Below are positions 5,722-45,013 of a stretch of 50,278 nucleotides of DNA, one piece after another. The notes under the pieces were generated by a model that was not told the DNA's origin, made no database searches, and was given only the letters and a program-made list of their open reading frames with translations. This stretch comes from a virus (lineage: Duplodnaviria; Caudoviricetes), in the IMG/VR virus record IMGVR_UViG_3300025082_000010, positions 1-50,278 of that record, one strand, 5' to 3'. The position numbers were made by a program, and so were the translations under genes. Numbering within the stretch: the first letter of the stretch is position 1; each line of letters opens with the position of its first letter.

Positions 5722-5848
5722 GTATAATATTGAGTGTTTGGGTAGTTGGGAATTGAAACACTACCCTACCAAATATTGACAACTTAAAATTGAAACACGA
5801 TGGAACAAAATACAGATAAAACCCAATTACCTAAACATATTGTTAGCA
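5722..5848 (+). repeat. attC-like palindromic site S1
   Basis: TAAT (stop of 5509..5727)-attgag-TGTTTGGGTAGTTGGG ... CCCAATTACCTAAACA-tatt-GTTAGCA. Confidence 0.65.
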
Positions 5849-5988
5849 ATAGCACATTAGATAAATGTATTGAATTGTTTGACAAATTAACGCCAATGGA
5901 AAGGTTGATTGTAATGGATAAGACTTGTAAAAATTGCGGAAACACTATTGAAGAATGGGTGTGTAGTAAATGTGATAACCCTTGCTAG
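5800..5988 (+). CDS. Small Cys-rich (CxxC...CxxC) cassette protein
   Basis: CKNC/CSKC; start codon lies inside site S1. Confidence 0.65.
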   Translation: MEQNTDKTQLPKHIVSNSTLDKCIELFDKLTPMERLIVMDKTCKNCGNTIEEWVCSKCDNPC

Positions 5989-6001
5989 TATTAATGCTAA
6001 C
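5842..6001 (+). mobile_element. Putative gene cassette C1
   Basis: Ends GTTAGCAATAGCAC / GTATTAATGCTAAC are complementary at 11/14 positions. Confidence 0.65.
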
Positions 6002-6062
6002 GTTTAAGCTAAAATTATGTTTATGAGCAAAGCGAAGAAATTAAATTTAGGTATTGTTATAA
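5995..6062 (+). repeat. attC-like palindromic site S2
   Basis: TGCTAAC-gtttaag-CTAAAATTA ... TAAATTTAG-gtatt-GTTATAA. Confidence 0.7.
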
Positions 6063-6175
6063 ACCCGAAGGGTGAGCAGTTGGTTTGTCCTGTATGTAGA
6101 AGCAGAAGAATAAAACAAGACCCTAAATGGGAGGATAATGAATGTTTGAATTGTAATAAGATTTGGACAAACTAA
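6023..6175 (+). CDS. Zinc-ribbon-like cassette protein (50 aa, not in ORF track)
   Basis: MSKAKKLNLGIVINPKGEQLVCPVCRSRRIKQDPKWEDNECLNCNKIWTN; start inside site S2. Confidence 0.65.
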   Translation: MSKAKKLNLGIVINPKGEQLVCPVCRSRRIKQDPKWEDNECLNCNKIWTN

Positions 6176-6186
6176 TTGTTTATAAC
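6056..6186 (+). mobile_element. Putative gene cassette C2
   Basis: Perfect 9-bp complementary ends GTTATAAAC / GTTTATAAC. Confidence 0.75.
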
Positions 6187-6230
6187 ATTGAAATAAAGCG
6201 CGTTTTAATGCGCATTATGGAATGTTATCA
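6180..6230 (+). repeat. attC-like palindromic site S3
   Basis: TTATAAC-attgaa-ATAAAGCGC-gttttaat-GCGCATTAT-ggaat-GTTATCA. Confidence 0.7.
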
Positions 6231-6704
6231 GGCGTTTTAATGCCTTTATTTAAAAATAAGAAAATGACAATAGAAGAGAAAGTAGAACAAGCCCTACCGC
6301 TACACATACCTTTTAGCGCGTACGGAATAGCAGAAATAGTTTACCCCAACCTAAGGAGGAAACACCCTAAAGGACACTTTATTAACACAGGGGAGGGTGA
6401 TGTTAAGATAGTTCTTGCTAAATTGGACTATGTAGAGGATCTTGGTGACGGGATGTATTGTATAGAAAAAATAGAGTTATGACACAGAGTAAAGCATTTG
6501 AATACTTAATCGAAAACAAAGAGAATTGCAGAATAGCAATGGGCATGCTGACAAGCTCAGAGGAAAGCGCTCCTATTTGGGAGGCACTCAGAGAAACCCT
6601 GTTAAACCTTCAACAAGCGATTGCACAAGATAACTATGATGAGGTTGTTGAGTCAATAGATAGGAGTGAGGTTATTTGGGAATCTATAAAAAAGGATATA
6701 AAAA

Positions 6705-6732
6705 AAGCCTAGGAAGATGAAAACCTAGGCTT
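6705..6732. terminator. Stem-loop, possible terminator
   Basis: AAGCCTAGG-10nt-CCTAGGCTT at the end of 6458..6712, A-run on the left. Confidence 0.45.
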
Positions 6733-7132
6733 CATTAATAAGACACTTTAAACAAAGTAATAAAACTATGGTACAAATGTACAAAAAAACAACTACAATA
6801 AACGAGCTTCACCGTAAGTTTTCAACAACTGACTATCCAGCTTGTAAACATTTATGGGATTCTATGGATAGAATGGGGTTCGAATTATGGCAATCAATAG
6901 TTGATGAAACATATGATAGAGGAGGTGGTTTTGACCTTCTTAACTTTATGGAAGATCACTCCTACAGTTATGATTTAAGAGATGTATTCTTTGACCTGCA
7001 AGACTTAGGGTTTTGCGAGATTCACGCACATAAAATATTAAAGAGACCCTTTGTATATTTTATACCTATTATAGATTCTATGTATAATCTCACTGAGTGT
7101 AATTTAATACAGCATGTAAACGAGGATGTAAA

Positions 7133-7504
7133 TTGAAGGCGATAGTAAGACGGGTTACGCTACATAAAGCCAGTAGGCGCGCAGATGATTCAGTAGCAAT
7201 TACCTTCATAACCGACACAGAGCAAAGCTCTAAGCAGCTAACAGAGCTAGACGAAGCCAGAAAGCAGGGAGGAGCGCTATACTTCAAGCCTAACGGGATA
7301 TTAAACGAAGAGGAGGCCAAAGCCATAGACAACGCTGGTATCAAGCCAGAAGGCAAGAGTAAGAGCCAACAGTTAAGGGGTGCTATTTGGGCAACTTGGA
7401 AGACAAAGAAGGGTTTAGGGCTTACAGAATTAACAGAAGAGCAGTATTATAACGCTAGGATGGAGCATTACAAGGCTATGGAGCGAGAAGAAAGAGAGAT
7501 TTAA
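7133..7504 (+). CDS. Phage hypothetical protein
   Basis: 123-aa ORF overlapping upstream stop; KSQQLR...W...YY...ME pattern. Confidence 0.6.
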   Translation: MKAIVRRVTLHKASRRADDSVAITFITDTEQSSKQLTELDEARKQGGALYFKPNGILNEEEAKAIDNAGIKPEGKSKSQQLRGAIWATWKTKKGLGLTELTEEQYYNARMEHYKAMEREEREI

Positions 7505-8845: not shown

Positions 8846-9130
8846 TATGAACTACGCAGAAACAAAAAAGAGACGAACAGAGCTGAAAAACAAGCTTGAA
8901 CACTGGACGGGTAGAGTACAAGAACGTACGGAGCTGGTCGACAAAATACAATCAGACATTAAAGAGAAAATGAAAATGTTTTCTAACGCTGACCAGCTAA
9001 CACACGCGGAAACATCACAACTACAGGCCGATCTATTACAGCTTAAAAAAGATCAAAGCAAGGCAACCCAAATGCTTTCTAAAGCAATGGATTTGAAGGA
9101 AGAGACACAAGAGAAACTGCTAAAATTGTC

Positions 9131-9472
9131 ATGAAACACAGCGATCTATACTTACATTTAAGAGAGCATATAACAGATGAGACATGGCAAAAGGTAGAAG
9201 ATATCATGACGTATTTCGGCACTTATTGGGAGGATCTAAAATCACATAGAAACCATTCAGTCAACACTTTGAAGTATATACATATTCGATATGCTAGGTT
9301 TTTAATCATACATTACCTACATAAAGAGTATAGCGTGCCGTTTAGGTTGCTAGCATCAATATTGTTCTCAGGATATAACTATAGATCATATTCTTACATT
9401 AGTCGTTGTGTAAACACAATGTTTACCAGACACATGTTTATAGAAAGATTTTACAAAGGATTAATAGAATAA
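9131..9472 (+). CDS. Hypothetical protein, possibly DnaA domain IV-like HTH
   Basis: YARFLIIHYL...PFRLLASIL resembles the AR..AMYL....SL..IG pattern. Confidence 0.35.
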   Translation: MKHSDLYLHLREHITDETWQKVEDIMTYFGTYWEDLKSHRNHSVNTLKYIHIRYARFLIIHYLHKEYSVPFRLLASILFSGYNYRSYSYISRCVNTMFTRHMFIERFYKGLIE

Positions 9473-9635
9473 CACACGCACCCACATAGACGGCTTGGGT
9501 GCTCTAACTAAAATAGGATTATGGATGAATATACATTAATGATAATATCCCTTAGTGCCTACTGGTTCATGGCAGGGTTTATTTGGGGGCAATTAAAAGA
9601 AAGATGGGACGAATGGGAAACAAAACGACAATAAT

Positions 9636-9803
9636 ATGCTAGGATTAATGGATGAAATGCCTGTAGGCAAATATAAAGGGGTGACAATAGAAGAGATAAT
9701 ACTAGAAGATGTTGACTATATCCATTGGGCTATTGATAACATTGACTGGTTTGAGGGCGAATTAACAGAAGAGGTTTTTGATTTTATTGAAGATGAGGCA
9801 TGA
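9636..9803 (+). CDS. Small MPxGKYKG-motif protein (DUF3820/ExoX C-terminal-like, 55 aa, not in ORF track)
   Basis: Manual translation MLGLMDEMPVGKYKGVTIEEIILEDVDYIHWAIDN... Confidence 0.6.
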   Translation: MLGLMDEMPVGKYKGVTIEEIILEDVDYIHWAIDNIDWFEGELTEEVFDFIEDEA

Positions 9804-10482
9804 AGTTAAAGAAGCAGATGAGGTTAATGGTAGCATATTTATTACAGACAGAAGACAAAGAGGTAATAGAATCTTATACCAAAACGTTCTGTAATATTGC
9901 TATAGAGTATTATCAAGACAAAGTAAAAAAACAAAACAATAAGACATGAAAGCATACACAATGATATCTACGGATTTTACCGTATCTAGCAATCAAGTAA
10001 AAGAAATCTTTTTAGAAGCGATGGTTAAAGAGGGACAGATAACAAAAGAACAACAAGACGCAATGAATAATTATTGTATTACTGTTGTTGAGAAAGGGTT
10101 CTTCGGTAAGTTGTGGGACAAATTATGGAGTGATAGCGAGGATAATTATTTTAATATTGTAGTTGTAAAAATAGTAGAATAAGTAAAATAGATGAATAAT
10201 TATGGAAGATGAAATACAAGAGTTAATCGACGTTTATGGAATGTTTTTATCGATTAATTATCAATGTCGTAATGAGTTGTTTTATATTCAAATTTATGAC
10301 CTAGAATCATCAACAGAGTTTTTTGGATATGATATTTACGGTTATAAAACTTATAAAGAAGCTCTTGATTTTGGGTATTCTTTAGTGATGAATTTAGCTG
10401 GAGATATTCAGAAAGAAGTAGATAAGGTAATAAAATCGATAGAAATATAACCAAATGTAAAAACTATTCGTATATTTGTACA

Positions 10483-10575
10483 GGTGATTAATTTGAATGT
10501 GAGTAGAGGCTCATTGAAATTAGTCACCGAAATTACCAAACCCTAATACTCCTCTACAGTGTTAGGGTTTTTTTT
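10483..10575 (+). ncRNA. Candidate structured RNA: two hairpins with complementary loops, ending in a terminator
   Basis: TATATTTG box at 10471-10478; hairpin 10483-10528 (loop GTAGAGG); hairpin 10538-10570 (loop CCTCTAC) plus T-run. Confidence 0.6.
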
Positions 10576-11490
10576 GGTCTATACCTTAAAAAACTCAACT
10601 CACAAATTAAAGACTTAGCCAAAATGGCTATTCAATGCGGTACGTTATCGCTGGTAATACGGAGTAAACCCTATACCACTACTATAGGAAACCATCTTCT
10701 CGATATTGGGGAGATGGTCTTATTTGATATTCTTTAGTACGGGAATTAAAATACTTACCGAAACCTAGCATATAGTTAGGCTTCTTATGATCAAGGGGCG
10801 AGAAACTCTCCGTTGTAAGAAGTAGGCTCAAGGAGACAGGGGCAGGCCAAATGCAAAGAGGATGGCTGGAAGGGGATGCAAGGTAACGCAGTGAGCATCC
10901 AAAACCTCTAAGTCTGTACATTGTTGTTATCTTGTAGTACAGATGTTTGATAAAGGGCGTAGCTCAAGGCGTAAGCAATTATCGAAACACATTAATTTTT
11001 TTACTAAGGGATTAATGTGTTTAAACAGAACGAAACTAAGACGAAGCAATTAACTAAACAACAATAAGATGAAAGCAACAGACATACAACGCATAATAGC
11101 AAGCACAAACGCACAATCTGCAAGTAAGGAAATATCGGATATAATAAACAACAAGATGAGTCACGATTACACGCTCATGATTAACGAGGTTTATCAAATA
11201 CTTGGCAAGTATGGCCCTGACAGGGAAGATATTAAAACAGACTTTAGAAAACTATGTGAACACTATAAAACTAAACAACAATAAGATGATAGTAACAGTA
11301 ATAAACTGGAGTGCAATATATGCCCCTATCAAGGAATATGTAAAGAGGCTATGGATAACAAAACGAGCATATAAAGGATACTGTGAGTATATTAGTGCTG
11401 TAAGAGGCAAGCCAAAACCATATAGCGAGTTTAAGAACTTTGAATTATGGAAGATCGAAACAGGTTATAACGCATACAAACATAAATAGC

Positions 11491-11967
11491 ATGAATTTAG
11501 ATAAAGCAATAGACGGAGCTGATAAGCTCATGAACACAGTAGGCAATCAGATAGACCAGAACACAGAATCAAAGCAAGATAGACGGCATAGGTTAGATCT
11601 TACCAGCCCTTTTAAACTACCTCACCTTATTAGACCTCTAATATTAGCAGGTACATTTATTTTGTTTGCCATGAGTGTAATTTGGGCGTTTGCAATAGCT
11701 ACGATTTTGATTAGTAAAGTAGGCATAGCAGAAACAGGCAACCAAATGCTTTCTACTGATTCAATTATATTATACCTCCTAGGGGCTACAGGTACAGCTT
11801 TTGCTACTCCGTGTGGATTCTATTACAACTCACGTAAAAACGAGAAGATTAACGCCAACAAAGCAAAAGCAGCTATAGAAATTGAAGAGATAAAACTAAA
11901 ACAGCAGATCAAAACAGATAGGATTGAAGCTAGAAGAGATCGAAGGGATAAAAGAAAAGACAAATAA
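11491..11967 (+). CDS. Holin-like membrane protein (resembles GTA 3TM holin family)
   Basis: D..S....LIRP followed by hydrophobic helices, GFYYNSR..EK and a basic tail. Confidence 0.5.
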   Translation: MNLDKAIDGADKLMNTVGNQIDQNTESKQDRRHRLDLTSPFKLPHLIRPLILAGTFILFAMSVIWAFAIATILISKVGIAETGNQMLSTDSIILYLLGATGTAFATPCGFYYNSRKNEKINANKAKAAIEIEEIKLKQQIKTDRIEARRDRRDKRKDK

Positions 11968-11970
11968 TAA

Positions 11971-12021
11971 TTGCATGTACGTAACATTTGTATTATGTTT
12001 ACGTTATAGTAAGTAAGACAC
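11971..12021 (+). promoter_or_regulatory. 51-bp repeated promoter/operator, copy 1
   Basis: TTG-N5-ACGTAACATTTGT-N2-TATGTTTACGTT...TAAGACAC; also at 30305 and 44228. Confidence 0.75.
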
Positions 12022-12918
12022 TAATTAATAACACTATGAAAATTGTACAAATAGAGCGATTGCAAGAGACGGTAAGAGAGGATTATACATTAATAACCTT
12101 TAGAACATGGTGGGGTAAAGAGTTTTCTGAAATTTGTATTACTCCAAACTGGGGCATAGGGACTGATTTTGCTAGTAGTGGAATGAGTATAGGTGTAAGC
12201 CTTTGGCCTGTCGTTAAGGGTTTTTTAAATACCAGTGATAAAATGCATAATTACAGAAGAAGACCAGTAAATACATTAGCATCATTAGAAGAATAAAGCA
12301 CTATGACACAAGGAGATAAATACGAGTACAACACCCAATACAGAGAGCAGTATATCTTAGAGGTGAAAAGCTACAATGATAAGAGCATTAAATTTAAGGC
12401 CATGTATAAACATCCTGAGGATGGAGATTCTTTTAATCTTGACATACCACAAGATATATTAAGGAAGATGATTAAGCGCAACAACATAAGACTAATAACA
12501 GAATGAAAGTATTAAAAAAGATTTACAGATTCTTTGAAAAAGCATGGCTATTAGCATTAGGACTAATAGCCGTTACAATAGGAGAGATGATCAGAAATGA
12601 TATTCACTGGACTTGGTTATTCTTGCCTGTATCATACCTAGCATTCACAGTTTACAACAACTTAACAAAAAATAATGAATCTAGAAGAACTTAAAAAGGA
12701 TAGCATCCCAAATAGAAACTTCTTCGTGAAATACTCAAACCACATTTTTACGTTTAAAAACCTCTTTAAATATACTGTAATTTATGAGATGAAGGATGAA
12801 AACAAAACAATAACGATATATGGGAAAATAGAGTATAGGAGTGATTTAAATATGAAAGAAACGTTAAAAAATCTAGTATTCGAACTAGAAGAAATTACAC
12901 ACATAGACATAAAAAACA

Positions 12919-13287
12919 ATGATTAGTTTAATATTAATAATCCTATCCTCCTTCTTTAACGCTATAATGGATCTATCCAGTGAAGGAAAGTTGAAAGATA
13001 AGTATAACAAAAATAAGACTTGGGAGAATAAATATAAGGAAGGTACTTTACAGCCTAAGTTCTTTGGGTCTACTTCGTGGCTTGTATGGACTACTGATCT
13101 CTGGCACCTTACAAAGATGCTTATGATAGTGTGCTTGATTGGCTCTATTGTATTTTACTCACCTCTTACACAATGGGGAAATGATGCGCATTACTACTAC
13201 AAGGCTCTAGATGCTTTCTTGTATCTCTTTGCGTGGCATGTAATGCATGAGGGAGTAAGAAAGGTTTATAAGTGGGTTAATAGGTAA
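12919..13287 (+). CDS. Membrane protein, hypothetical
   Basis: Several hydrophobic segments; TDLWHL motif. Confidence 0.6.
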   Translation: MISLILIILSSFFNAIMDLSSEGKLKDKYNKNKTWENKYKEGTLQPKFFGSTSWLVWTTDLWHLTKMLMIVCLIGSIVFYSPLTQWGNDAHYYYKALDAFLYLFAWHVMHEGVRKVYKWVNR

Positions 13288-13346
13288 CGAACGATCTGGC
13301 TAAACGTCTGCGGCTGAAAGGAGTTGCGTTTTAGCTCGTGTTAGCT
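13282..13346 (+). repeat. attC-like palindromic site S4
   Basis: GGTAAC(stop)GAAC-gatctg-GCTAAA ... TTTAGC-tcgt-GTTAGCT. Confidence 0.7.
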
Positions 13347-13562
13347 TTTCGTTTATCATATACCACAAATTTAATAAAATGGACTTACTGAAACGTAAAA
13401 TAAAAAGTTGGGATTTCACCGATAGTAGTGAGTGGAAGATAAATAGATGTGCTTCTAAATATCAACGTAAATTAATAAAGAAGATGTACCGAAGACTTAA
13501 GAGGTCAGTAAAAGGACACGAAAAAAGGGAAATAAAGAGATACTTAGACAATGAATGCTAAC
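13340..13562 (+). mobile_element. Putative gene cassette C3 (basic 60-aa ORF 13379..13561)
   Basis: Ends GTTAGC / GCTAAC; ORF stop is the TAA of TAAC. Confidence 0.65.
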
Positions 13563-13626
13563 GCCGCTTGTATACCAGCTTGAGCGACGTACGAGGTACG
13601 AGTATGGGGTATACAATTTGTTAAGC
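13556..13626 (+). repeat. attC-like palindromic site S5
   Basis: TGCTAAC-gccgc-TTGTATACC ... GGTATACAA-ttt-GTTAAGC (fits GTTRRRY). Confidence 0.75.
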
Positions 13627-13902
13627 AAATAGAAAAGATGAAAGAAGTAAAAGAAGAGTTAGTAAGCTATGAGCTTGCAGTGATGTTGCAAAAAGCAGGG
13701 TTTGATGGTTTTGTACATAATTACTATTGCTCAGTAAAAGGGCTACAGGAAAACCAAGATCTAAGCAATTACAATAGTGATGACCATTGTTTTGGTGTAT
13801 ATTCAGCACCAACGCTTTCACATGTTCAAACATGGCTGCGAGTGGTGTATATTCAGCACCCAAACTTAGGATAATTAAAGAAGAACTTAACTTAATAGAA
13901 AA

Positions 13903-14652
13903 ATGAATGAGTTTATAATCATAAAAACTATCGAGGTTTCGGCACTAGAAATAACGGCGCAAGGGATGATTGCTGAAAACAAACAAAGGGAAATTGAAGG
14001 CGCTTCGATGGCTTACACTGAGGAAGACTTTGTGTTGATAGCTAAGCAAATCCAGGATGTTGCACAACAAATCAGGTTAAAAAAAAATAGAACTATGAAA
14101 ACTATTTGGAAAGAAAAAGATGTAGTCATGTTGGGCACTAGCGATCAAAACTGCCCTATCTTTAAGCATCCGACAGAAGAGAAGCTTAGGGTTGGGCTTG
14201 GCGTTCAAAACCACGAACCCCTACATCCTCGTGATAGATCACAACACCTCTACATCCTATCAGATGAGGAGATAAAAGAGGGTGATTGGTACTATTCGAG
14301 TTTGGACATATGTAGTAGAGATGATCGAGGGATTAGGAATTTCATGCCAGAACCAGAGGATTTAAAGTATTCTAAAAAGATCATAGCAACTACTAATCCG
14401 AAACTACTAACTACTCGGATTAGTGTTGACCAAGATTTCAATGAATCTTACATACCTGTACCACAAGTACCTCAATCATTTGTGGAGTTATTTGCTAAGG
14501 AGCAAGGTATTGATAAGGTGTTGGTGGAGTATAAAGAAACAGGGATTTCTCAAGAAAGAGGAGGTAGAACAGTCGGAATGACAACAGAATCATACGGATT
14601 TAAGCAAGCACTCAAACTAACCAACAACGAGATAAACATTAAACTAATATAA
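13903..14652 (+). CDS. Hypothetical protein, probably two fused phage modules
   Basis: GMIAENKQR..AY.EEDF module, then internal MKTIWK and LYILSDEEIKEGDW...KIIATT module. Confidence 0.55.
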   Translation: MNEFIIIKTIEVSALEITAQGMIAENKQREIEGASMAYTEEDFVLIAKQIQDVAQQIRLKKNRTMKTIWKEKDVVMLGTSDQNCPIFKHPTEEKLRVGLGVQNHEPLHPRDRSQHLYILSDEEIKEGDWYYSSLDICSRDDRGIRNFMPEPEDLKYSKKIIATTNPKLLTTRISVDQDFNESYIPVPQVPQSFVELFAKEQGIDKVLVEYKETGISQERGGRTVGMTTESYGFKQALKLTNNEINIKLI

Positions 14653-14657
14653 AAATC

Positions 14658-15167
14658 ATGAATAAATTTGGTAAAGCAAGCGCGCGAAACATCGCCACGG
14701 TACACAGTATACTACAAACACTAGCTTACAGGACACTAGAAAAGGTATCTACAAAACACTCATGGATAGACATGACAGTTTTAAAAAGTGGGGGTCTTCG
14801 TACAGCAATGGAGCAAAACGCGCTATTCAAAGAGAACCCACCGAAAACATCACTAGACGGCTATTCCAAAAAGAGCTATCATCAGTCAGGTTTAGCAATT
14901 GACCTAGTGCCATATCTTGACGGTCGAGCAGATTGGAGCAATGCAGAAGCCTTTTTATTGATCGCTGAGGCTGGTCTGGAAGTCTGGGAGGAAATGAAAG
15001 AAGAGGGACAGACGAGTATTTACTTTCTCCATTGGGGCGGCTTTTGGGGCGCTAAGGATTTAAACGATAATGGCCTGCTTGATGTTGATGATAAGCAAGG
15101 CTGGGACAGGCCACACTGGGAGCTTAGGACGTATGAGCAGACAAGGGGAGTTATGCCTATTTGGTAA
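14658..15167 (+). CDS. Endolysin, M15-family (L-Ala-D-Glu-type) peptidase
   Basis: GLRT..EQ, SYHQSGLAIDL, WGGFW, DRPHWEL zinc-peptidase motifs. Confidence 0.88.
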   Translation: MNKFGKASARNIATVHSILQTLAYRTLEKVSTKHSWIDMTVLKSGGLRTAMEQNALFKENPPKTSLDGYSKKSYHQSGLAIDLVPYLDGRADWSNAEAFLLIAEAGLEVWEEMKEEGQTSIYFLHWGGFWGAKDLNDNGLLDVDDKQGWDRPHWELRTYEQTRGVMPIW

Positions 15168-15229
15168 CATCCGTATAAAACAGCCTGCGCAACGTCGAGG
15201 AACGAGATGGGTTTTATATTATGTTAAAG
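15162..15229 (+). repeat. attC-like palindromic site S6 (solo)
   Basis: TGGTAAC (endolysin stop)-atccg-TATAAAAC ... GTTTTATA-ttat-GTTAAAG. Confidence 0.7.
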
Positions 15230-18815: not shown

Positions 18816-18963
18816 GATATGGCTGAGGATAAGGTAAAACTAAGTCTTAGAGGCGTGGACTATTCAATAGGGATAGTTCTCGCTCAAAGGATTCTTTCTA
18901 GTCCAAACAACTTAAGAGATCCACAAGGTTACAAATTGAATGATGATAAATATACCCTAAATA

Positions 18964-30294: not shown

Positions 30295-30304
30295 TAATCT
30301 TTTC

Positions 30305-37192: not shown

Positions 37193-37195
37193 ATT

Positions 37196-40100: not shown

Positions 40101-40966
40101 ATACTAGTTTAGCAACGGCAAGCATTCCTGCAAGTACTGAATTAATTACACAGTGTGTGTTTGAGGTTCTTGATAGTATTGTGGCTATTGATCTAACAGG
40201 TCTTTCAAGGCTCTCTGGTATATTTAGAATAGGTGGTAATGATTTAATGACAACATTATCAATACCTGCAAGTACTGATTTATTTTCGCTTGTACAAATT
40301 CACCAAAATGATATAATTAGCGTTATAGATATTAGCGGTTTTAGCAAGCTGGGAGGTAGTTTATTAATTAATGTTAATGTAGGGTGTACTTCTTTATTGC
40401 TGCCGACGAGTTCAGAATCTATTACGGTTACGAATATAACAAGCAACACATCATTACCGTCTGTAAGTTTATTGAACCTAACAAATATTAGCGGATCTGT
40501 AGAAATAAGCCTTAACACAGTGTTAACTACTATTACATGGCCTCTTTCATCGGGGAATATTACTAATATAAATATCTTTAATAATGCTCTTACTTCTCTA
40601 TTGCTTCCTTCTACTCTTACGATTAGCGGTATATTAGTTGCTAAGAACATGCCTACATTAACGTCTATTGCGTTACCATCAGGCACAGGGGTGCACACAG
40701 CTATAACATTAAATGGATGCTCTTTGACCGCTTTTGACATTACGCCTAGAACAGGGGCTAATAACAATATAAATATAAATTTAAATGGTAACGCTTTAGA
40801 CACTGCAAGCGTAGACACTGTGTTGTCTGACCTTGTTACTACTGGATGGACAGGAGGAGTGTTAAACATTCAACAAACCCCTTCAGCGGTTCCTTCAGCA
40901 TCAGGTATAGCAGATAAAGACACTTTAGTAGATTTTAGAGGATGGACAATAACGTATGACACTTAA
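37196..40966 (+). CDS. Large tail protein with C-terminal LRR/L-domain-like solenoid (putative receptor binding)
   Basis: 1256 aa; recurring L..L.L..L..I.G.L.I..N..L..L..P units near C-terminus. Confidence 0.6.
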   Translation: MATKLTISVLKLRAGDSFYIKSNTASPNWNSQINIVATNPDMLEAQDTSGIVPASEEWIAAVENLVVPLQDVPFFNSVSYDIAKNKTLITINSSEQIETDKFFKSVANGTELEFISYIDADGAKIDATSGHAQSVYFGSLLVPNITVTEITHELNEFTGLSDKTYIRGNPSNEIKTEIFFTTKENLAGKQVEFSYGLLQNTTNPYTGSTTTVSEPYKIDPDYFTNRLTGTIQTYRGEFASPSNPLTPVNWDTGSFTIVNVVNNDYKATHIHRLLDLGTDNVSDDATDIFTPSVLDGKKSIKYVFEVVVYPDNISSMVDETTAKEDLTLFMNQGAIGWFDQVYNSPTKQYTLNSFTWDTPSGELNPAFNSVGDAVVAIDTGTWNAADQVIIAIQSIIEEDEYAVNVNLSNNIQFENVVLVADGTPVSGTNLINVSATIDAGDSTLLNISLEVVDSNYTDRYSVTAQILSNSLTSTISLKSGTVLTAADESVITFGTYPSAALTEYNFNFHWNKDITQAFNQVIAFTEDNYIARWRVVNSDTSNTSLSRFRIRIMNRETNIQYESLSISASDMPSYTQERDFLIDDASETEYVEIIVTDNLDGTYDFQYPFQVWKSWFQEANMVFRIECRFDQILATGETVTFTNTFDSPDFQMGNYDTTLNTALEPQALRKPPSIQFQDEATGDPLTIIKNEGLTRVIATFEDNNLNDLQVFPAAPYTYTTVIQNGLTGYLSINDKTGAQSKELQFHNFRVNQTTVGTVSNPWQVADAHPTYNSRITRTDIKTATIEAILNAEKLKALFGDDLQCVKVSGRLDAYRIPEVCFSYMTDGVVDAVTSYSATLSGSEVPTWSFVSGDSIAVNVLNLIDRTNPISLNALDFNGNDQIVKACMTDYSTVTLLQFNETSILGTFDIELFTGVIDISIVDNPDLLDIKFPTHAIATTGIVITDNDLLSDLDLTPLSSIGGNLSVERNTSLATASIPASTELITQCVFEVLDSIVAIDLTGLSRLSGIFRIGGNDLMTTLSIPASTDLFSLVQIHQNDIISVIDISGFSKLGGSLLINVNVGCTSLLLPTSSESITVTNITSNTSLPSVSLLNLTNISGSVEISLNTVLTTITWPLSSGNITNINIFNNALTSLLLPSTLTISGILVAKNMPTLTSIALPSGTGVHTAITLNGCSLTAFDITPRTGANNNININLNGNALDTASVDTVLSDLVTTGWTGGVLNIQQTPSAVPSASGIADKDTLVDFRGWTITYDT

Positions 40967-41183
40967 TAATTATGGAAACTTTCGCGAGAATAATTTACAA
41001 CATCAACACGCATACAGTTCTACATGTTGCTGAACACACTGATAAAGGCGTTACAAGCTTTAACATCTTAGACACTGATATAGGCCATTGTTCTACATTA
41101 CACCCTATACTAGTTGCTCAAGGGTATAATGTAGATGTATTAGAAGCTTACATGAATGATAAAAACATTGCAATCCCTGAATA

Positions 41184-42134
41184 ATGGCATATACTCAATT
41201 TGTACCTGATAACATGCTGCAGCCGTACGGCACGAATCAGCTAGAAACGTGTATAAAGTTTGCAACTCCACTACCTGAGCAGCTTGTTGGTATGGTTCCA
41301 ACAACAGCAACTAATACCGATTGCGTGCAAGATCCTTGCTATACGCTTTGTGTGTTTGATGAAGATAAGAGTTCATTCCTATACGACTATCCAGATACTA
41401 CAGGAACAGCAACCTTTGAACTACAAAAATATAACGGGTCTGTATGGGTTACGGCTGCTAATCCAATGGGTGCAACGGAGGGCGTACTTTCTCCTATCGG
41501 AACATTTCCAGATTATCCAAGTTATGCAGGCTTTGAGATAGATTGGTCTTTAGTTTATGCTAATCATGGTGGAGTTGGAAAGTATAGATTTGTAGTAAAA
41601 ACCACAGATCCAGCAAACGACATGTTTTCATTACCTTTTGATTTAAAGGAAAACACATGCGATAATAAGAATTTGACGGTTAAGATTGAGATGGTAAACC
41701 AAGGTAGTTACTTCAATCTGAATTATACACCAGACAATAAAACGAGGCGTATCTATGACCTTATTAATATGACTTGGTATGATAGTGTAAGGTATTACGG
41801 GGTAACTGTCAAGGGAGACATTGAGACAGAAGAAACCAACGTAAATTATAATGACTACGCTGATTTAAACGTATACAGTGAAGACCGCGACACTTATGAT
41901 GTAAAGATCCCTTTGATATCTCAAGACCTTATACAAAGGTTGTACGCATATGGATTGCGTAGTGAAGATATAAAGTTGACAGATAACAACACGCTTAATC
42001 AAACGTTTTATGAACAGTTACCTATTGTATCAAATGGCGCGTATACGTTTGAAAGACAACCTAGAAAACAAGTCCTAAACACGGTAAGCATTCCGATAAA
42101 GCATCGATATGCACGAAGGTACAAAAAAAGCTGA
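41184..42134 (+). CDS. Tail-associated protein
   Basis: Last gene of the structural operon, 316 aa. Confidence 0.45.
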   Translation: MAYTQFVPDNMLQPYGTNQLETCIKFATPLPEQLVGMVPTTATNTDCVQDPCYTLCVFDEDKSSFLYDYPDTTGTATFELQKYNGSVWVTAANPMGATEGVLSPIGTFPDYPSYAGFEIDWSLVYANHGGVGKYRFVVKTTDPANDMFSLPFDLKENTCDNKNLTVKIEMVNQGSYFNLNYTPDNKTRRIYDLINMTWYDSVRYYGVTVKGDIETEETNVNYNDYADLNVYSEDRDTYDVKIPLISQDLIQRLYAYGLRSEDIKLTDNNTLNQTFYEQLPIVSNGAYTFERQPRKQVLNTVSIPIKHRYARRYKKS

Positions 42135-42169
42135 TCTACAAGGTAGACAGCGTTTCCGTAGCTGGACAA

Positions 42170-42196
42170 CCTCCACCTGTATAAAACGGGTGGAGG
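42170..42196. terminator. Stem-loop at convergence of the two transcription arms
   Basis: CCTCCACCTGT-ATAAA-ACGGGTGGAGG. Confidence 0.6.
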
Positions 42197-42222
42197 ACAT
42201 TTAAAAAAGGCATTAAAACGCC

Positions 42223-42278
42223 TTATAACACTTTATATAAACTATTCGTCCCTCACTGTTTATATGCCGATGTTATAA
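42223..42278 (-). repeat. attC-like palindromic site M6
   Basis: Minus: TTATAAC-atcggc-ATATAAAC ... GTTTATAT-aaagt-GTTATAA. Confidence 0.72.
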
Positions 42279-42503
42279 ACAATAAAATTATTCCTTTGGT
42301 GCTTCTGGTAAGGGCATCCAATATTTTATTTCTATAGTTTCATAATCTAAGTTTTGAAAAATATTAGTTTTATTGTTATACATTGCTTCATGTACTACAT
42401 TTGGAGATAATCTATCGCTTACTACTAAACATCTAGTAAATCCTATCCCCTCAGGTAATTTTTTGTGTGGGTCTATCCAATCCATAATTTTCCAGTTTAT
42501 AAC
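42272..42503 (-). mobile_element. Putative gene cassette C7
   Basis: Perfect 9-bp complementary ends GTTATAAAC / GTTTATAAC. Confidence 0.75.
42288..42485 (-). CDS. DUF551-like protein
   Basis: MDWI....LP ... YWMPLPEAP. Confidence 0.8.
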   Translation of the reverse strand: MDWIDPHKKLPEGIGFTRCLVVSDRLSPNVVHEAMYNNKTNIFQNLDYETIEIKYWMPLPEAPKE

Positions 42504-42548
42504 ATTATTTAAAAATCATTAAAACGCTTTTTACATTTACCGTTATCA
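42497..42548 (-). repeat. attC-like palindromic site M5
   Basis: Minus: TGATAAC-ggtaaatg-TAAAAA-gcgttttaatga-TTTTTA-aataat-GTTATAA. Confidence 0.65.
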
Positions 42549-43007
42549 TCAATTAGCCCAACGCTCCCACGCTTCGAGTAATTGAATTAATCTATCTACT
42601 TTCTTTTTGTACTTCTTAGGTACTTTGTTTGGTCTAATAGAGTTGTCTGAACCGCTTAATTTACGGCTCAGTTCACTCCATTTTATTATTTTAGTACACT
42701 CTTTCAATTCTTGGTTTTCTTGATATTGCTTTGATTGCTTCATTTATTGCAGATTTCTTTGTTAAATGACATTCTTCATAGATGTGTATTGATTCAAAGT
42801 CAGAATCTCCCATGTATATTTTTAAAAAAAATTCGTATTGAGTTTTAGTTCTATACACTTTTTCAATTACTACTTTATTTCCCTCTATTACCGTTGTGTA
42901 TTTTGTGTTGTTCATAATTGTTTTTCCGTTTTTGTATGATACAAATATACAGTATTCTGTAATTACTACCAAATAAAAATACAGAAAAATGTAAAAAAGA
43001 TGATAAC
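42542..43007 (-). mobile_element. Putative two-gene cassette C6 (42691..42915 and 42549..42743) with own promoter
   Basis: Perfect 9-bp complementary ends GTTATCATC / GATGATAAC; TATATTTG at 42949-42942. Confidence 0.75.
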
Positions 43008-43054
43008 ACGGTATAAAACGCCATTAAACAGGCGTTTATACAATACCGTTACCT
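43001..43054 (-). repeat. attC-like palindromic site M4
   Basis: Minus: AGGTAAC(stop)-ggtatt-GTATAAACGCC-tgtttaat-GGCGTTTTATAC-cgt-GTTATCA. Confidence 0.75.
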
Positions 43055-43558
43055 ATAAACTACGTTCTCAAAACTACCTGAAACACTAAACAAAGTATCT
43101 TGCTGATACACCCACCCACTACCGTAAAACGTACCAGACACCATATTAGCACTGTCTTTGGTTATGATGATAGCGCCCTCGGAGCATTGTTGTGCTGTTA
43201 TAGATGACCCTCCGTTCCATGTTATAGGTATAGAGTTAGACAATATAGCTGGCCATTTTATGTTATTAGTATCAAGTCCTTCTTCAAAAGACATTCCAAC
43301 ACTATAGAACTCATCACTAGAAAACAATATTCCAATTCTATCATCATCAATATAAGCCGTATCCACTGTAAAACACTGCTCATCATAAACAACAGTATCA
43401 ACATCATGCATCACATACGTTTTAGAGATACATATTTGATTAGTCGTAATCTCAATAGGGTCTACAGTTACAATCTGTGGTTGTGGCTCCTCCTCCTTAT
43501 TACAGGAAGTGAAGACTATCACAGTTACAATCGCGGTTAAAAGTTCTGGTAATTTCAT
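43049..43558 (-). CDS. Lipoprotein
   Basis: Signal peptide with lipobox VFTS-C followed by NKEEE. Confidence 0.8.
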   Translation of the reverse strand: MKLPELLTAIVTVIVFTSCNKEEEPQPQIVTVDPIEITTNQICISKTYVMHDVDTVVYDEQCFTVDTAYIDDDRIGILFSSDEFYSVGMSFEEGLDTNNIKWPAILSNSIPITWNGGSSITAQQCSEGAIIITKDSANMVSGTFYGSGWVYQQDTLFSVSGSFENVVYR

Positions 43559-43811
43559 AATTTTGATAGTTTTGATAATACTATTGTAAGATAGGTTTGT
43601 AGGTCGTTACTACCTATTCTATAGGGTACTAATTTGTCAATCTCATTAGGCAATACCTCAATAACCCAATCTTTATAGATAATAGGATATTTAATAGGCT
43701 TATTCCCGTGACCTCTTAAAGCCCTGTATGATATGTTGTTTTCAATACAAAACCCCCTCAATGATCTAGAAAGGGTTTTAGTATTGCTACTTGTTATTAA
43801 GTATAATGCCA

Positions 43812-44177
43812 TTAATCTACGGTTTTAATTGTTATATCATCTTGGTAATGCTTCATAGCATGCTTAACTATCCCTTTTAAGTCTTCGTTGTCACAAGCAG
43901 CCTCGAAGGTGTCATAACTAAAAAACTTTTCAGCTTGAAAGTCTAGCTCTACCTCTGAATGATCAACTTGATAGCACTCTTCAAACAAAAGAGGGTGAAA
44001 CTTCTTAGACCATATTTTAACGATTTCAAGAGGCATTTTTATGTCGAAAAAAGTGTTTTCCTGATCGTAGTATCTAATTTCGATATTCTCAGTACGTTGG
44101 TTGTCTGTGATAGTGTAGTCTTCTATTTTAATTTTTGAAGCAATCATCTTTTTAAGTTTTTTAAGTCTCTTAATCAT
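43812..44177 (-). CDS. Hypothetical protein
   Basis: Starts immediately after promoter repeat copy 3. Confidence 0.6.
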   Translation of the reverse strand: MIKRLKKLKKMIASKIKIEDYTITDNQRTENIEIRYYDQENTFFDIKMPLEIVKIWSKKFHPLLFEECYQVDHSEVELDFQAEKFFSYDTFEAACDNEDLKGIVKHAMKHYQDDITIKTVD

Positions 44178-44228
44178 GTGTCTTAATTATATAAACGTAA
44201 AGATATAACAAATGTTACGTATCTGCAA
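44178..44228 (-). promoter_or_regulatory. 51-bp repeated promoter/operator, copy 3
   Basis: Minus: TTGCAGATACGTAACATTTGTTATATCTTTACGTTTATATAATTAAGACAC. Confidence 0.75.
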
Positions 44229-44235
44229 GGATTAT

Positions 44236-44301
44236 TTACAACAAAGAATAAAAAATACTCGTACCTCGCAACGCTCAAGCTTTTTTATTCGGATGTTATG
44301 A
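44236..44301 (-). repeat. attC-like palindromic site M3
   Basis: Minus: TCATAAC-atcc-GAATAAAAAA ... TTTTTTATTC-ttt-GTTGTAA. Confidence 0.75.
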
Positions 44302-44589
44302 GTAATTGTGATATTCACCACCATTAATAATATACTTTCTTAATTTTCTCAACTCCTTTTTAGCCCCCCAGCTTTTCTTTTTCACGGATATTAATTGTTG
44401 TGGGTATATCTCATAACTATCATCTATCTTGTAATCACCTCCTTGATTACGTATCACACATACAATTACGCTTTTTCCGTATTGGTCTTGTCTAACAAAT
44501 GCAGGTTCAGCTTCTAAGAATCCACCATTTGAAAAAGACTGCAACGACCAAATCAATACTCTATCTCCTTTCTTTAACATACTCATAAC
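44295..44589 (-). mobile_element. Putative gene cassette C5 (ORF 44296..44586)
   Basis: Perfect 10-bp complementary ends GTTATGAGTA / TACTCATAAC. Confidence 0.8.
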
Positions 44590-44678
44590 AACGGCTAAAA
44601 ATTAATAGCCTTATTTACATTATCACTTAACTAATTAGTTCATTACTTAGGCTACTAATCTTAGCCAAAACGTTAGCA
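44583..44678 (-). repeat. attC-like palindromic site M2
   Basis: Minus: TGCTAAC-gtttt-GGCTAAGATTAGTAGCCT ... AGGCTATTAATTTTTAGCC-gtt-GTTATGA. Confidence 0.78.
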
Positions 44679-44966
44679 TTAATACTACTTTCGTATGCTG
44701 TCTAAGTATATACCAGTTAAATCTTCATAATCAACCCCTTTTGGTAATTTTCCTATTGGTTCTACATTTACTTTAATATAAATAGGTTCTCCTTTGTCTT
44801 GGAAATAATAGTCATCTATATGTAAATCAATTATTTTACACTTAATGTCAATATCATTACCTTTTTCATCTTCAGCTATTATAGCTGTTACTGTTTGTCC
44901 AATTAATTCTCTTAAATCATTCATTTTTATAAAATTTATTTGTTAATAATCCGTACTAATGCTAAC
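44672..44966 (-). mobile_element. Putative gene cassette C4 (ORF 44685..44924)
   Basis: Ends GTTAGCATTAGTAC / GTATTAATGCTAAC complementary at 13/14. Confidence 0.8.
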
Positions 44967-45013
44967 AATGGCTAAAACGGCATTAAAACAACCGTTTAGC
45001 CTAAGCGTTACCC
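44960..45013 (-). repeat. attC-like palindromic site M1
   Basis: Minus: GGGTAAC(stop)-gcttag-GCTAAACGG-ttgttttaatg-CCGTTTTAGC-catt-GTTAGCA. Confidence 0.75.

What the first reader, a model, noticed from the sequence alone, without database searches (positions are those of the whole stretch)
5722..45013. Integron-like gene-cassette system in a phage with no integrase: 12 attC-like sites, at least 7 cassettes, 5 loci
Seen: twelve 50-130 bp imperfect palindromes of form TAAC-spacer-stem...stem-spacer-GTT at 5722, 5995, 6180, 13282, 13556, 15162 (+) and 45013, 44678, 44301, 43054, 42548, 42278 (-). They start at or just after stop codons. All are polarised with transcription: the left spacer is 1-3 nt longer than the right in every case. 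Every segment between adjacent sites has its own complementary ends: 11/14, 9/9, 6/6, 13/14, 10/10, 9/9 and 9/9 bp. Established: in integron arrays the bases after G^TT belong to the next cassette and pair with that cassette's own inverse core (RYYYAAC), which gives this pattern. The cores here often deviate from GTTRRRY. Inference: the phage acquires, loses and reorders small accessory genes as circular cassettes using a host or helper IntI-like recombinase that acts on folded ssDNA, giving it a cassette-based accessory genome. I cannot verify novelty without a literature or database search.
Basis: partly seen in the sequence, partly recalled or inferred. Interest (0 to 1): 0.93.

Follow-up and report, generated by a model that had tools for sequence, protein, structure and literature searches.

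The report
Hairpin-bounded mobile gene cassettes in phage
A marine phage carries small accessory genes as swappable units, each led by an integron-like DNA hairpin and cut out exactly at a four-letter TAAC core, yet the phage has no enzyme known to do this.

Summary
Eleven of the twelve sites (all but 5722) belong to one family: TAAC, a 4-9 nt spacer, a 7-11 bp stem, a loop, the stem's other arm, a 3-4 nt spacer, GTTA. All are intergenic and point with transcription.

The sequence after each hairpin pairs with the sequence before the next hairpin (17 of 21 neighbour pairs). It does not pair with the same hairpin's own other flank (0 of 28). No permutation of 100,000 matched this. An automatically defined set from 12 other viral contigs gave the same result.

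The family occurs in Polaribacter phage P12002L, where two attC sites were already published, and in many IMG/VR contigs. I found none in bacterial genomes, but tested only one loop type.

Units are exchanged exactly at TAAC:
- Two independent metagenomes hold a variant lacking precisely two units (712 nt).
- P12002L and an unrelated contig share a methyltransferase unit running from one TAAC to the next.

Unlike canonical integrons, the hairpin leads its gene, the coding strand folds best, RYYYAAC/GTTRRRY are not met, and no recombinase was found in the two complete phage records. I read it as an integron-like cassette system of reversed polarity with an unknown enzyme.

The parts
5998..6059 (+). 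Element E2: TAAC core, stem, loop, stem, GTTA core. The ATG of ORF 6017-6175 lies in its loop.
   Evidence: R2 34.5 bits, E 7e-5. Sequence. Its left flank and 5' arm closely match those of E8, by my own comparison of the sequences.
6183..6227 (+). Element E3, with a loop of the GTTTTAATG type. It is followed by a terminator-like hairpin at 6230-6245.
   Evidence: R2 31.3 bits. The terminator scan lists 6230-6245. It shares both outer flanks with E12 but has a different hairpin.
13285..13343 (+). Element E4, a weak member with a bulged stem of the GGCTAAACG type.
   Evidence: R2 13.4 bits, E 4.7. Constrained fold -14.3 kcal/mol. The TAA of its core is the stop codon of ORF 12919-13287.
13559..13623 (+). 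Element E5, with the conserved ~30-nt loop ('type B').
   Evidence: R1 75.5 bits. 9-bp perfect stem, spacers 5/3.
15165..15226 (+). Element E6 (type B loop), just after the endolysin gene.
   Evidence: R1 71.1 bits. Stem 8 bp, spacers 5/4. Endolysin 14658-15167.
44963..45010 (-). Element E7. A 28-nt block of it, taken exactly, occurs in 15 IMG/VR contigs, and a near-identical hairpin sits in phage P12002L.
   Evidence: R2 27.7 bits, not in the training set..
44586..44675 (-). Element E8 (long loop).
   Evidence: R2 25.6 bits, not in the training set. Coordinates.
44239..44298 (-). Element E9 (type B loop). Its right core is GTTG.
   Evidence: R1 70.5 bits. 10-bp stem, spacers 4/3.
43004..43051 (-). 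Element E10. By eye it is followed by a promoter of the TTTG...TAnnTTTG form at about 42990-42945; that consensus is recalled, not tested.
   Evidence: R2 24.8 bits, not in the training set. Sequence.
42500..42545 (-). Element E11.
   Evidence: R2 33.2 bits. Coordinates.
42226..42275 (-). Element E12, last of the array. It is followed by a terminator-like hairpin at 42207-42224.
   Evidence: R2 38.6 bits. Terminator scan.
44296..45007 (-). Two units: E7 hairpin + ORF 44685-44924 (335 nt), and E8 hairpin + ORF 44296-44586 (377 nt). Both are absent as one 712-nt block from variants in other metagenomes.
   Evidence: Joint 44294->45007 skips 712 nt. It is seen in 1 contig of run X4 (side 32) and 1 contig of run X7 (side 97), from two studies. 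Four letters fit both sides, and these are the TAAC of E7 and of E9.
42273..42542 (-). Unit: E11 hairpin + ORF 42288-42485 (DUF551). Its ends are complementary 9/9.
42543..43048 (-). Unit: E10 hairpin + ORFs 42691-42972 and 42549-42743. Its ends are complementary 9/9.
13288..13561 (+). Unit: E4 hairpin + ORF 13379-13561. Its ends are complementary 6/6.
13562..15167 (+). Larger unit: E5 hairpin + three ORFs, including the M15-type endolysin. Its ends pair only with a 1-nt shift.
4659..5518 (+). Erf-family single-strand annealing protein (4659-5168) and SSB (5171-5518). These are the only recombination proteins recognised in the phage.
   Evidence: PHROGs 2e-37 and 1e-23. Pfam ERF 2e-24.
5722..5790 (+). 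Hairpin after ORF 5509-5727.
   Evidence: No TAAC or GTT cores, and found by neither model.

Best explanation
The window is a complete 50.3-kb virulent phage genome. From its promoter form and its relatives I infer that it infects marine Flavobacteriia. Part of its accessory genome is built from mobile units of this layout: C, spacer, hairpin, spacer, GTTA-N5, leader, one or a few ORFs, N5'-TAA.

In an array, the TAA that ends one unit and the C that starts the next form a TAAC core. N5' at the end of a unit is complementary to N5 just after that unit's own hairpin. If the unit is closed into a circle or folded, this makes an integron-attC-like structure: a 10-11 bp outer stem, an asymmetric unpaired spacer, an inner stem and a loop.

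Most likely mechanism (inferred): a recombinase that reads this folded single strand, here the coding strand, cuts and rejoins at TAA|C. Units are thereby excised, inserted beside other hairpins, and exchanged between phages co-infecting one host.

SHOWN: the architecture, unit-specific end complementarity, exact TAAC borders of indels and of shared units, coding-strand folding bias, and no known recombinase found in the phage.

INFERRED: strand exchange on folded single-stranded DNA, a circular intermediate, and a host-encoded or unrecognised enzyme. A tyrosine recombinase is the leading guess; an HUH/Y1 enzyme is the alternative.

The hairpins probably also act in the mRNA, as stabilisers, weak terminators or processing sites. 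The wobble pairs are all of the G.U kind on the transcript strand, and some loops are conserved in sequence.
For: ARCHITECTURE AND NUMBERS.
- 10 window hits at E <= 0.012, all in the sense orientation.
- 18 perfect-stem hits against 5.6 +/- 2.2 in shuffles.

UNIT-SPECIFIC ENDS.
- Watson-Crick run of >= 5 beyond AAC/GTT in 17 of 21 neighbour pairs across four genomes.
- The same measure gives 0 of 28 for one element's own two flanks and 14 of 819 for non-neighbours.
- 0 of 100,000 permutations reach the observed sum.
- Elements of that set were picked by eye. An automatic set of 51 model hits in 12 further loci (50 with cores in register) gave 17 of 36 neighbours, 1 of 50 own and 72 of 2414 non-neighbours, with 0 of 50,000 permutations.
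- The fourth core base co-varies, GTTG with the next CAAC, at G001 gg->gh, P12002L p5->p6 and L001 x3->x4.

EXACT BORDERS.
- A 712-nt joint, equal to two units, appears in contigs of two studies with TAAC fitting both sides.
- 6 of the 24 listed loose ends lie within 3 nt of a TAAC core: 42539, 42545, 42272, 45010, 45011, 43049.
- Similarity of 15 IMG/VR contigs to the window is confined to the E7 hairpin. It starts at 45010 or 45009 in 15 of 15, and in 6 of 15 it runs on into the downstream leader.

SHARED UNITS.
- P12002L and L133 are homologous from C-3 of one TAAC to C-1 of the next (816 and 874 nt; methyltransferase gp35). There is no collinear similarity in the 2.5 kb upstream or the 491 nt downstream.
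- L140 and L131 are 89.7% alike over 699 nt, which is exactly core to core.

FOLDED STRAND.
- G.U pairs 71 (sense) against 13 (antisense). The sense strand is more stable in 23 of 26 elements, mean -4.8 kcal/mol, p = 3e-5.
- The first non-Watson-Crick position of the flank stems is G.T in 8 of 21 pairs and A.C in 0.

NO ENZYME FOUND IN CIS. PF00589, TIGR02249, PF00239 and PF01797 each give 0 matches in the 5 records searched. G000 and G001 are rated 100% complete.

PRECEDENT. One predicted attC of P12002L recombined with attI1 under IntI1 in E. coli (PMC9892861, sections 2.1 and 3.4 read).
Against: - No recombinase is identified, and no circle junction or empty site was observed directly.
- The read evidence is from assembled contigs at >= 85% likeness, not raw reads.
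- 4 of 21 hand-picked neighbour pairs and 19 of 36 automatic ones lack the complementarity.
- One loose end lies 2 nt before a GTTA core (44968). E3 and E12 share both outer flanks yet differ in the hairpin. So exchange at the right core, or hairpin replacement, also happens.
- Between G001 and G004 the whole array differs as one block, and its border lies at another conserved hairpin/promoter motif, not at TAAC.
- Sequence-conserved loops and G.U-only wobbles would also fit a purely RNA-level role.
- The extra spacer bases sit on the 5' arm of the better-folding strand. As I recall the canonical attC bottom strand, this is the opposite arrangement.
- Homologues of one cassette gene occur in three phages without any element.
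Confidence: 0.55

Rival explanations
1. These are canonical integron attC sites forming a cluster without an integrase (CALIN). A host IntI recombines the folded bottom strand at G|TT, and each attC belongs to the gene upstream of it.
For: - The layout is the same: AAC/GTT cores, an unpaired spacer, an inner stem and a variable loop.
- The left arm is longer in 6 of the 6 window sites measured.
- Cassette ends are self-complementary.
- HattCI/Infernal predicted two attC sites in P12002L, and IntI1 recombined the bottom strand of one (PMC9892861).
Against: - Borders of indels and of shared units lie at the left core. Similarity stops at TAAC on the left in 15 of 15 contigs but passes GTTA on the right in 6 of 15. 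So the hairpin goes with the downstream gene.
- RYYYAAC is met in 0 of 28 elements and GTTRRRY in 3 of 28.
- The sense strand folds better in 23 of 26 elements.
- The IntegronFinder 2.0 paper names only Salinibacter ruber M1 as a Bacteroidetes genome with a complete integron (PMC9024848, passage).
- The type-B loop pattern gave only 2 hits in 185,579 species genomes, and both are chance hits.
Confidence: 0.12
2. These are conserved regulatory hairpins that act as short homology patches. General or relaxed homologous recombination between phages, for instance by the phage Erf annealing protein, crosses over there, as with the PeSL promoter/stem-loop cassettes of T4-type phages. No site-specific enzyme is involved.
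For: - The phage encodes Erf and SSB next to one array.
- Hairpins of 45-60 nt are nearly identical between unrelated phages.
- One element (L046/L048) has non-matching arms, as if crossed over inside the conserved loop.
- The G001/G004 block difference ends at another conserved hairpin motif.
- The PeSL precedent: PMC2839356 and PMC4122927, seen only in the search listing.
Against: - The 712-nt joint shares only the 4 letters TAAC.
- The right border of the P12002L/L133 unit lies at a TAA followed by unlike sequence.
- Homologous exchange does not explain why each unit's two ends are complementary to each other while one hairpin's own flanks are not (0 of 28).
- G001 and P12002L showed no match to the window's Erf in my tblastn at 1e-3.
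Confidence: 0.12
3. The units move by single-strand 'peel and paste' transposition by an HUH/Y1 enzyme of the IS200/IS605 or REP/RAYT kind. The enzyme recognises the hairpin and finds its cleavage sites by base pairing with neighbouring guide bases, here GTTA-N5.
For: - One strand is strongly preferred.
- A four-letter cleavage/target core lies a few bases 5' of a hairpin.
- The distal end of the unit is complementary to bases next to the hairpin. This resembles guide-sequence recognition in IS608 as I recall it.
- Insertions are all in one orientation.
Against: - PF01797 gives 0 matches in the 5 phage records searched.
- Units have one hairpin, not two subterminal ones.
- No member of that family is known to me that carries variable cargo in arrays.
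- IntI1, a tyrosine recombinase, can use one P12002L site (PMC9892861).
Confidence: 0.1
4. The hairpins are purely RNA-level elements: terminators, mRNA stabilisers, or processing sites with cistron-closing stems. The exact borders are by-products, for example of polymerase template switching at hairpin bases.
For: - All elements follow stop codons in the sense orientation.
- Wobbles are G.U on the transcript strand only: 71 against 13 in the hairpins, and 8 against 0 in the flank stems.
- Loop sequences are conserved.
- E3 and E12 are followed by T-tract hairpins.
Against: - No Rfam family matches.
- Most elements lack a T tract.
- An RNA role does not explain whole units shared core to core between unrelated phages.
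- It also does not explain 15 contigs whose only similarity to this genome is one hairpin starting exactly at TAAC.
Confidence: 0.06

Closest known systems
Integron gene cassettes and attC sites; clusters of attC without an integrase (CALIN) in virulent phages (Qi et al. 2023, PMC9892861)
   Same: - An imperfect palindrome with AAC...GTT cores, an unpaired asymmetric spacer, an inner stem and a variable loop.
- Promoter-poor small ORFs in co-oriented arrays.
- Each cassette's two ends are complementary.
- No integrase sits beside the array.
- The family is present in P12002L, the very phage in which two attC sites were published.
   Different: - The hairpin leads its gene instead of following it; borders are at TAA|C.
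- The coding strand folds best.
- RYYYAAC is met in 0 of 28 elements and GTTRRRY in 3 of 28.
- The outer stem is 10-11 bp with a unit-specific N5.
- Some loops are conserved in sequence.
- Arrays are far larger than published: about 20 elements in 12.9 kb of L132, against 2 sites predicted in P12002L.
- The host phylum is reported to have almost no integrons.
PeSL (promoter-early stem-loop) mobile regulatory cassettes of T4-type phages (PMC2839356, PMC4122927; search listing only)
   Same: Repeated intergenic stem-loops flank small variable genes in hyperplastic regions of virulent phages, and indels between relatives end at them.
   Different: PeSLs work by homologous recombination between longer conserved promoter and terminator sequences. 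Here the shared letters at a joint can be only TAAC, and each unit carries its own complementary ends.
IS200/IS605 and REP/RAYT hairpin-directed single-strand HUH systems (recalled, not tested)
   Same: - Strand-specific hairpins.
- A four-letter cleavage/target site next to the hairpin.
- Recognition aided by base pairing with bases beside the hairpin foot.
   Different: No Y1 transposase gene in the phages. Each unit has a single hairpin, and the units carry variable cargo genes in arrays.
Folded single-strand attP of CTX phage used by host XerCD (recalled, not tested)
   Same: A phage relies on a host tyrosine recombinase that acts on a hairpin folded from one DNA strand and encodes no recombinase itself.
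   Different: That system integrates a whole phage at dif. It does not shuffle gene cassettes in arrays. No dif-like site was tested here.

Membership tests
Integron (complete) | An IntI tyrosine recombinase gene next to the array | tested here: not met
   TIGR02249 and PF00589 gave 0 matches in six-frame searches. TIGR02249 was run on G001-G005 and PF00589 on G000-G003 and G005. G000 and G001 are rated 100% complete.
Integron (complete) | An attI site and a Pc promoter at the head of the array | not tested
   No model for attI was available. The first hairpin of each array follows an ordinary phage gene.
attC site / CALIN | Architecture R''-spacer-L''-loop-L'-spacer-R' with AAC and GTT cores | tested here: met
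   Covariance models R1 and R2. 10 window hits at E <= 0.012. 50 of 51 hits in other loci have both cores in register.
attC site / CALIN | R boxes fit RYYYAAC and GTTRRRY | tested here: not met
   RYYYAAC in 0 of 28 elements and GTTRRRY in 3 of 28. Only TAAC/GTTA is conserved.
attC site / CALIN | Bases beyond the crossover belong to the neighbouring cassette and pair with that cassette's own far end | tested here: met
   17 of 21 neighbour pairs, against 0 of 28 own pairs and 14 of 819 others. The independent set gave 17 of 36, 1 of 50 and 72 of 2414.
attC site / CALIN | Crossover at G|TT of R', so that the attC travels with the ORF upstream of it | tested here: not met
   Borders lie at the left core. 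See the 712-nt joint inside TAAC, the left limit of similarity at TAAC in 15 of 15 contigs, and shared units running from TAAC to TAAC. One loose end lies near a GTTA core.
attC site / CALIN | The strand opposite to the cassette ORF (the bottom strand) is the folded substrate | tested here: inconclusive
   The sense strand folds better in 23 of 26 elements, and all flank-stem wobbles are G.T on the sense strand. The spacer asymmetry matches the canonical orientation as I recall it. For one published P12002L site IntI1 used the strand that paper calls 'bottom', but its coordinates are in a supplement I could not open.
attC site / CALIN | Detected by the IntegronFinder or HattCI attC models | not testable with these tools
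   No Rfam family matched the arrays at any threshold tried. The literature reports 2 predicted sites in P12002L (PMC9892861), whereas I find at least 5 family members there.
IS200/IS605 or REP/RAYT | A Y1 HUH transposase associated with the hairpins | tested here: not met
   PF01797 gave 0 matches in 5 phage records. Host genomes were not searched.
T4-type PeSL cassettes | Exchange by homology within conserved promoter/terminator repeats | tested here: not met
   Only 4 letters are shared at the 712-nt joint. The right border of the shared methyltransferase unit is followed by unlike sequence.

The most novel reading that the evidence does not exclude
These hairpins define a phage-specific cassette system that is a mirror image of the integron. 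The recombination hairpin sits at the 5' end of each unit, the coding strand is the substrate, the cut is at TAA|C, and each unit carries its own 5-nt 'address' that closes the outer stem. It would be run by a recombinase that is not a canonical IntI: either a host enzyme of Flavobacteriia or an unrecognised phage protein.

One cassette gene also exists as an ordinary gene in other phages. The cassette copy differs by short terminal extensions that supply the inverted repeat. The system could therefore show how cassettes are born, which is an open question for integrons.
Probability: 0.35. Interest if true: 0.92.

Novelty: new variant of a known kind. Interest (0 to 1): 0.8.

Why it matters
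- It would explain how virulent marine phages gain, lose and trade small accessory genes, such as DNA methyltransferases, a Mom-like protein, an endolysin module and many orphan genes, with base-pair precision and without their own integrase.
- It extends the published note of two attC sites in one Polaribacter phage to a widespread family with arrays of about 20 sites.
- It shows natural exchange of whole units between phages.
- It points to a recombination activity in a phylum reported to have almost no integrons.
- The reversed polarity and the unit-specific address suggest either a new use of a known enzyme class or a new enzyme.
- The pairing of cassette and non-cassette copies of one gene gives a handle on cassette genesis.
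- Any RNA role of the same hairpins would link gene mobility to expression control.

Tried and rejected
NO CLOSE RELATIVE. Nothing close to the phage was found in GenBank phages by megablast or blastn. The portal protein found nothing in IMG/VR. The best primase relatives are 68% identical at the protein level in IMG/VR and in metagenomes. A cassette-by-cassette comparison with a near-identical genome was therefore impossible.

SCREENS THAT DID NOT HELP.
- A fold-energy screen of every TAAC...GTTA pair was too noisy to use.
- Rfam gave nothing at the gathering threshold or at the E-value threshold. No tRNA was found.

HOMOLOGUES OF CASSETTE GENES.
- ORF 44685-44924 had no tblastn match in GenBank phages.
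- ORF 44296-44586 had one, in a Vibrio phage at 40%, and 4 metagenome relatives.
- Its three IMG/VR homologues carry no elements.
- Cassette proteins are mostly orphans in PHROGs and Pfam.

OTHER SEARCHES.
- No protein shared with the other element-bearing phages could be a common recombinase.
- The type-B element has no match in GenBank phages. The E7-type hairpin matches only P12002L.
- G004 against G001: the array differs as one block, with a border that is not at TAAC.
- Joints 42294->42482 and 44688->44947 have sides of only 22-23 letters. I do not use them.
- Parts of the window without contig cover are not used as evidence.

NOT DONE.
- Host genomes (Flavobacteriia) could not be searched for IntI, Y1 transposases or the elements.
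- Literature: searches found no description of this family beyond PMC9892861. I therefore cannot say which of my elements are its attC1 and attC2.

CAVEATS ON MY OWN COUNTS.
- In one search I dropped 3 of the 29 rows of alignment A3 before counting: L114:39119(+), L015:17342(-) and window:5992. The last later proved to be a full element.
- In one search the strand of each hit was chosen by the model, so that strand test is not independent.
- The attC polarity rules, IS608 guide pairing, the CTX/Xer system and the Bacteroidetes promoter consensus are recalled. They come from no call.

Full report
WHAT THE WINDOW IS. The window is a whole virus record of 50,278 bases, rated 100% complete. It encodes a large terminase, a portal, a primase/helicase, a helicase, a DNA methyltransferase and an M15-type endolysin. 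It also encodes an Erf-family annealing protein and an SSB. Genes run leftward at 1-4.1 kb and 42.2-50.3 kb, and rightward in between. By eye, the region after one element has a promoter of the form I recall for Bacteroidota. The nearest named relative by terminase is Polaribacter phage P12002L at 41% amino-acid identity.

THE OBSERVATION. Reading the twelve places shows one architecture: xxTAAC, a 4-9 nt spacer, a 7-11 bp stem, a loop, the other stem arm, a 3-4 nt spacer, GTTAxx.
- A strict scan for perfect stems gave 18 hits (each palindromic site counts on both strands), against 5.6 +/- 2.2 in 30 dinucleotide shuffles.
- A covariance model built from the four window members with a conserved loop, plus four copies from other contigs (R1), found the other loop types too, always scoring higher on the transcribed strand.
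- A general model (R2) finds ten window sites at E <= 0.012. Three of them were not in its training set. After them comes a clear gap.
- Site 13285 is weak for the model but fits by eye.
- Site 5722 has no cores and is not a member.
- Site 5995 is a full element whose loop holds the start codon of the next ORF.
So 11 of the 12 sites are confirmed. The TAA of TAAC is the stop codon at six of them.

COMPLEMENTARY SEGMENT ENDS: THE KEY CLAIM. I measured the Watson-Crick run beyond the AAC/GTT triplets between the right flank of one element and the left flank of another.
The claimed 11/14 is not reproduced.
- Over four genomes (the window, the IMG/VR record G001, P12002L and L001), 17 of 21 neighbour pairs have a run of five or more. 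The two flanks of one and the same element give 0 of 28, and non-neighbours give 14 of 819. No permutation of 100,000 reaches the observed sum.
- Those elements were picked by eye, so I repeated the test on all 51 R2 hits in 12 further IMG/VR loci. Of these, 50 have both cores in register. Seventeen of 36 neighbours reach five, against 1 of 50 own pairs and 72 of 2414 others, with 0 of 50,000 permutations. Some failures probably reflect elements the model missed.
- The fourth core letter co-varies across a unit, GTTG with the next CAAC, in three cases.
- Beyond the variable five letters both flanks carry conserved A/T-rich motifs.

HOW WIDESPREAD IT IS.
- The conserved loop pattern found true copies in six low-GC IMG/VR loci (two of them with the same sequence); the other 14 of the 20 hits are chance hits. 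In 185,579 bacterial and archaeal species genomes it gave only two chance hits.
- G001, a 70.7-kb record rated complete, has an array of about ten small ORFs, each separated from the next by such an element.
- A 12.9-kb piece of a 71-kb contig (L132) has about twenty.
- P12002L has at least five, beside its methyltransferase and Mom-like genes. One has a stem-loop almost identical to the window's element at 45010.
- A 28-letter block of that hairpin, taken exactly, is in 15 IMG/VR contigs. Among 50,697 GenBank phage records the 55-base query spanning that hairpin matched only P12002L.

WHERE THE UNITS BREAK. I laid contigs of four marine metagenome runs from four studies on 40500-48000.
- One contig each from two studies joins 44294 to 45007, skipping 712 bases. 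Four letters fit on both sides. These are the TAAC of the elements at 45010 and 44298. The skipped part equals exactly two units of 335 and 377 bases, each a hairpin plus its downstream ORF.
- Six of the 24 listed loose ends lie within three bases of a TAAC core, and one lies two bases before a GTTA core.
- The tool warns that joints at likeness under 95 can come from other organisms. Here that is the point, since these are related phages. But this is contig evidence, not read evidence.
- The 15 contigs with the shared hairpin have no other similarity to the window's array. In 15 of 15 the similarity begins at 45010 or 45009, the first letters of TAAC. On the other side it stops just past GTTA in 9 and runs on for 10-50 bases into the leader in 6.
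- P12002L and L133 share a segment running from three bases before the C of one TAAC to one base before the C of the next (816 and 874 bases; it holds the gp35 methyltransferase). There is no collinear similarity in 2.5 kb upstream or in the 491 bases available downstream.
- L140 and L131 share 699 bases at 89.7%, exactly core to core, with nothing shared upstream.
So the unit is [C-hairpin-GTTA-N5-leader-ORF-N5'-TAA]. The hairpin leads its gene.

WHICH STRAND FOLDS. In 26 elements the minimum-energy fold of the coding strand has 71 G.U pairs, against 13 for the opposite strand. The coding strand is more stable in 23 of the 26 (mean 4.8 kcal/mol, p = 3e-5). In the flank stems the first non-Watson-Crick position is G.T in 8 of 21 pairs and never A.C. 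Selection therefore acts on pairing in the coding strand, either as single-stranded DNA or as RNA.

THE ENZYME. Six-frame searches found no tyrosine recombinase, IntI, serine recombinase or Y1 transposase in the five records searched. The element-bearing phages share almost no proteins. The enzyme is therefore host-encoded or unrecognised.

WHAT IS IN PRINT.
- Qi et al. 2023 (PMC9892861; abstract, sections 2.1 and 3.4 and passages read) screened 10,705 phage genomes and found 17 attC clusters without an integrase. One was in P12002L, with two predicted sites flanking methyltransferase genes. They showed that IntI1 recombines one of these with attI1 in E. coli. Their supplementary coordinates were not open to me.
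- The IntegronFinder 2.0 paper (PMC9024848, passage) names only Salinibacter ruber M1 as a Bacteroidetes genome with a complete integron.
- My four literature searches found no description of the family, its arrays, its polarity or its shared units.

READING. The data fit integron-like, structure-directed, site-specific exchange of cassettes. They depart from canonical integrons in polarity, folded strand, core consensus, outer-stem length and the lack of an integrase.
- Homologous exchange at conserved hairpins, as with the PeSL cassettes of T4-type phages, may add to the mosaicism. The chimeric element in L046/L048 and the G001/G004 block difference point that way. But it does not explain four-letter joints or unit-specific ends.
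- A role of the same hairpins in mRNA is likely, but it cannot be the whole story.

AGAINST MY READING.
- Some neighbour pairs lack complementarity.
- There is one break near GTTA.
- E3 and E12 share both flanks but have different hairpins.
- No circle junction or enzyme is in hand.

TOOLS.

Noticed in passing
L115 (G001) 8900-14200: A second repeated intergenic motif sits upstream of the cassette array. It is a hairpin of the form ..GCACAAAGGG..CCCTTTGTGC.. followed by TTTGAACTTTAAAT-like A/T-rich sequence, placed before many small ORFs. It looks like a promoter/terminator cassette of the PeSL kind. The G001/G004 block difference ends at one copy.
   Followed up: partly
L036 2745-3683 (= G001 about 18354-19920): A complete 70.7-kb phage record carries a P-II-like gene and an ammonium-transporter-like gene directly after its cassette array. 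I identified them by reading the translation only. A tRNA-like 3' end lies near G001 14000.
   Followed up: no
window 6230-6245 (+) and 42207-42224 (-): Two near-identical short hairpins with a GTTTTAATG loop and a T tract follow the last element of two arrays. The same loop recurs inside several elements here, in L001, L021 and G001, and in P12002L.
   Followed up: partly
window 44296-44586 (-), against L125-L127: This cassette gene has 62-66% homologues in three other viral contigs that have no hairpin elements. One of those contigs is 340 kb. The window copy has two extra N-terminal and about four extra C-terminal codons, and these carry the unit's 10-letter inverted repeat.
   Followed up: partly
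L128 about 10100-10140 (the same sequence in L130, and in an X9 loose end at window 45010): An 'empty' unit: a GTTA-N5 and its complementary N5'-TAAC are separated by only 11 bases, directly in front of the next hairpin.
   Followed up: no
L046 2780-2855 / L048 11990-12065: An element whose two stem arms are not complementary. The left arm resembles one element type, while the loop and right arm resemble another. It looks like a crossover inside the conserved loop.
   Followed up: no
window 13580-13610, 15185-15215, 44255-44280: The conserved 'type B' loop contains a tandem heptad of the form GnACGAG. That looks like a binding site for a protein or an RNA partner.
   Followed up: no
window 45103-45227: Contigs of two studies replace 123 bases inside ORF 45008-45241 with 9 other letters. 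This is an allelic form of that small gene.
   Followed up: no
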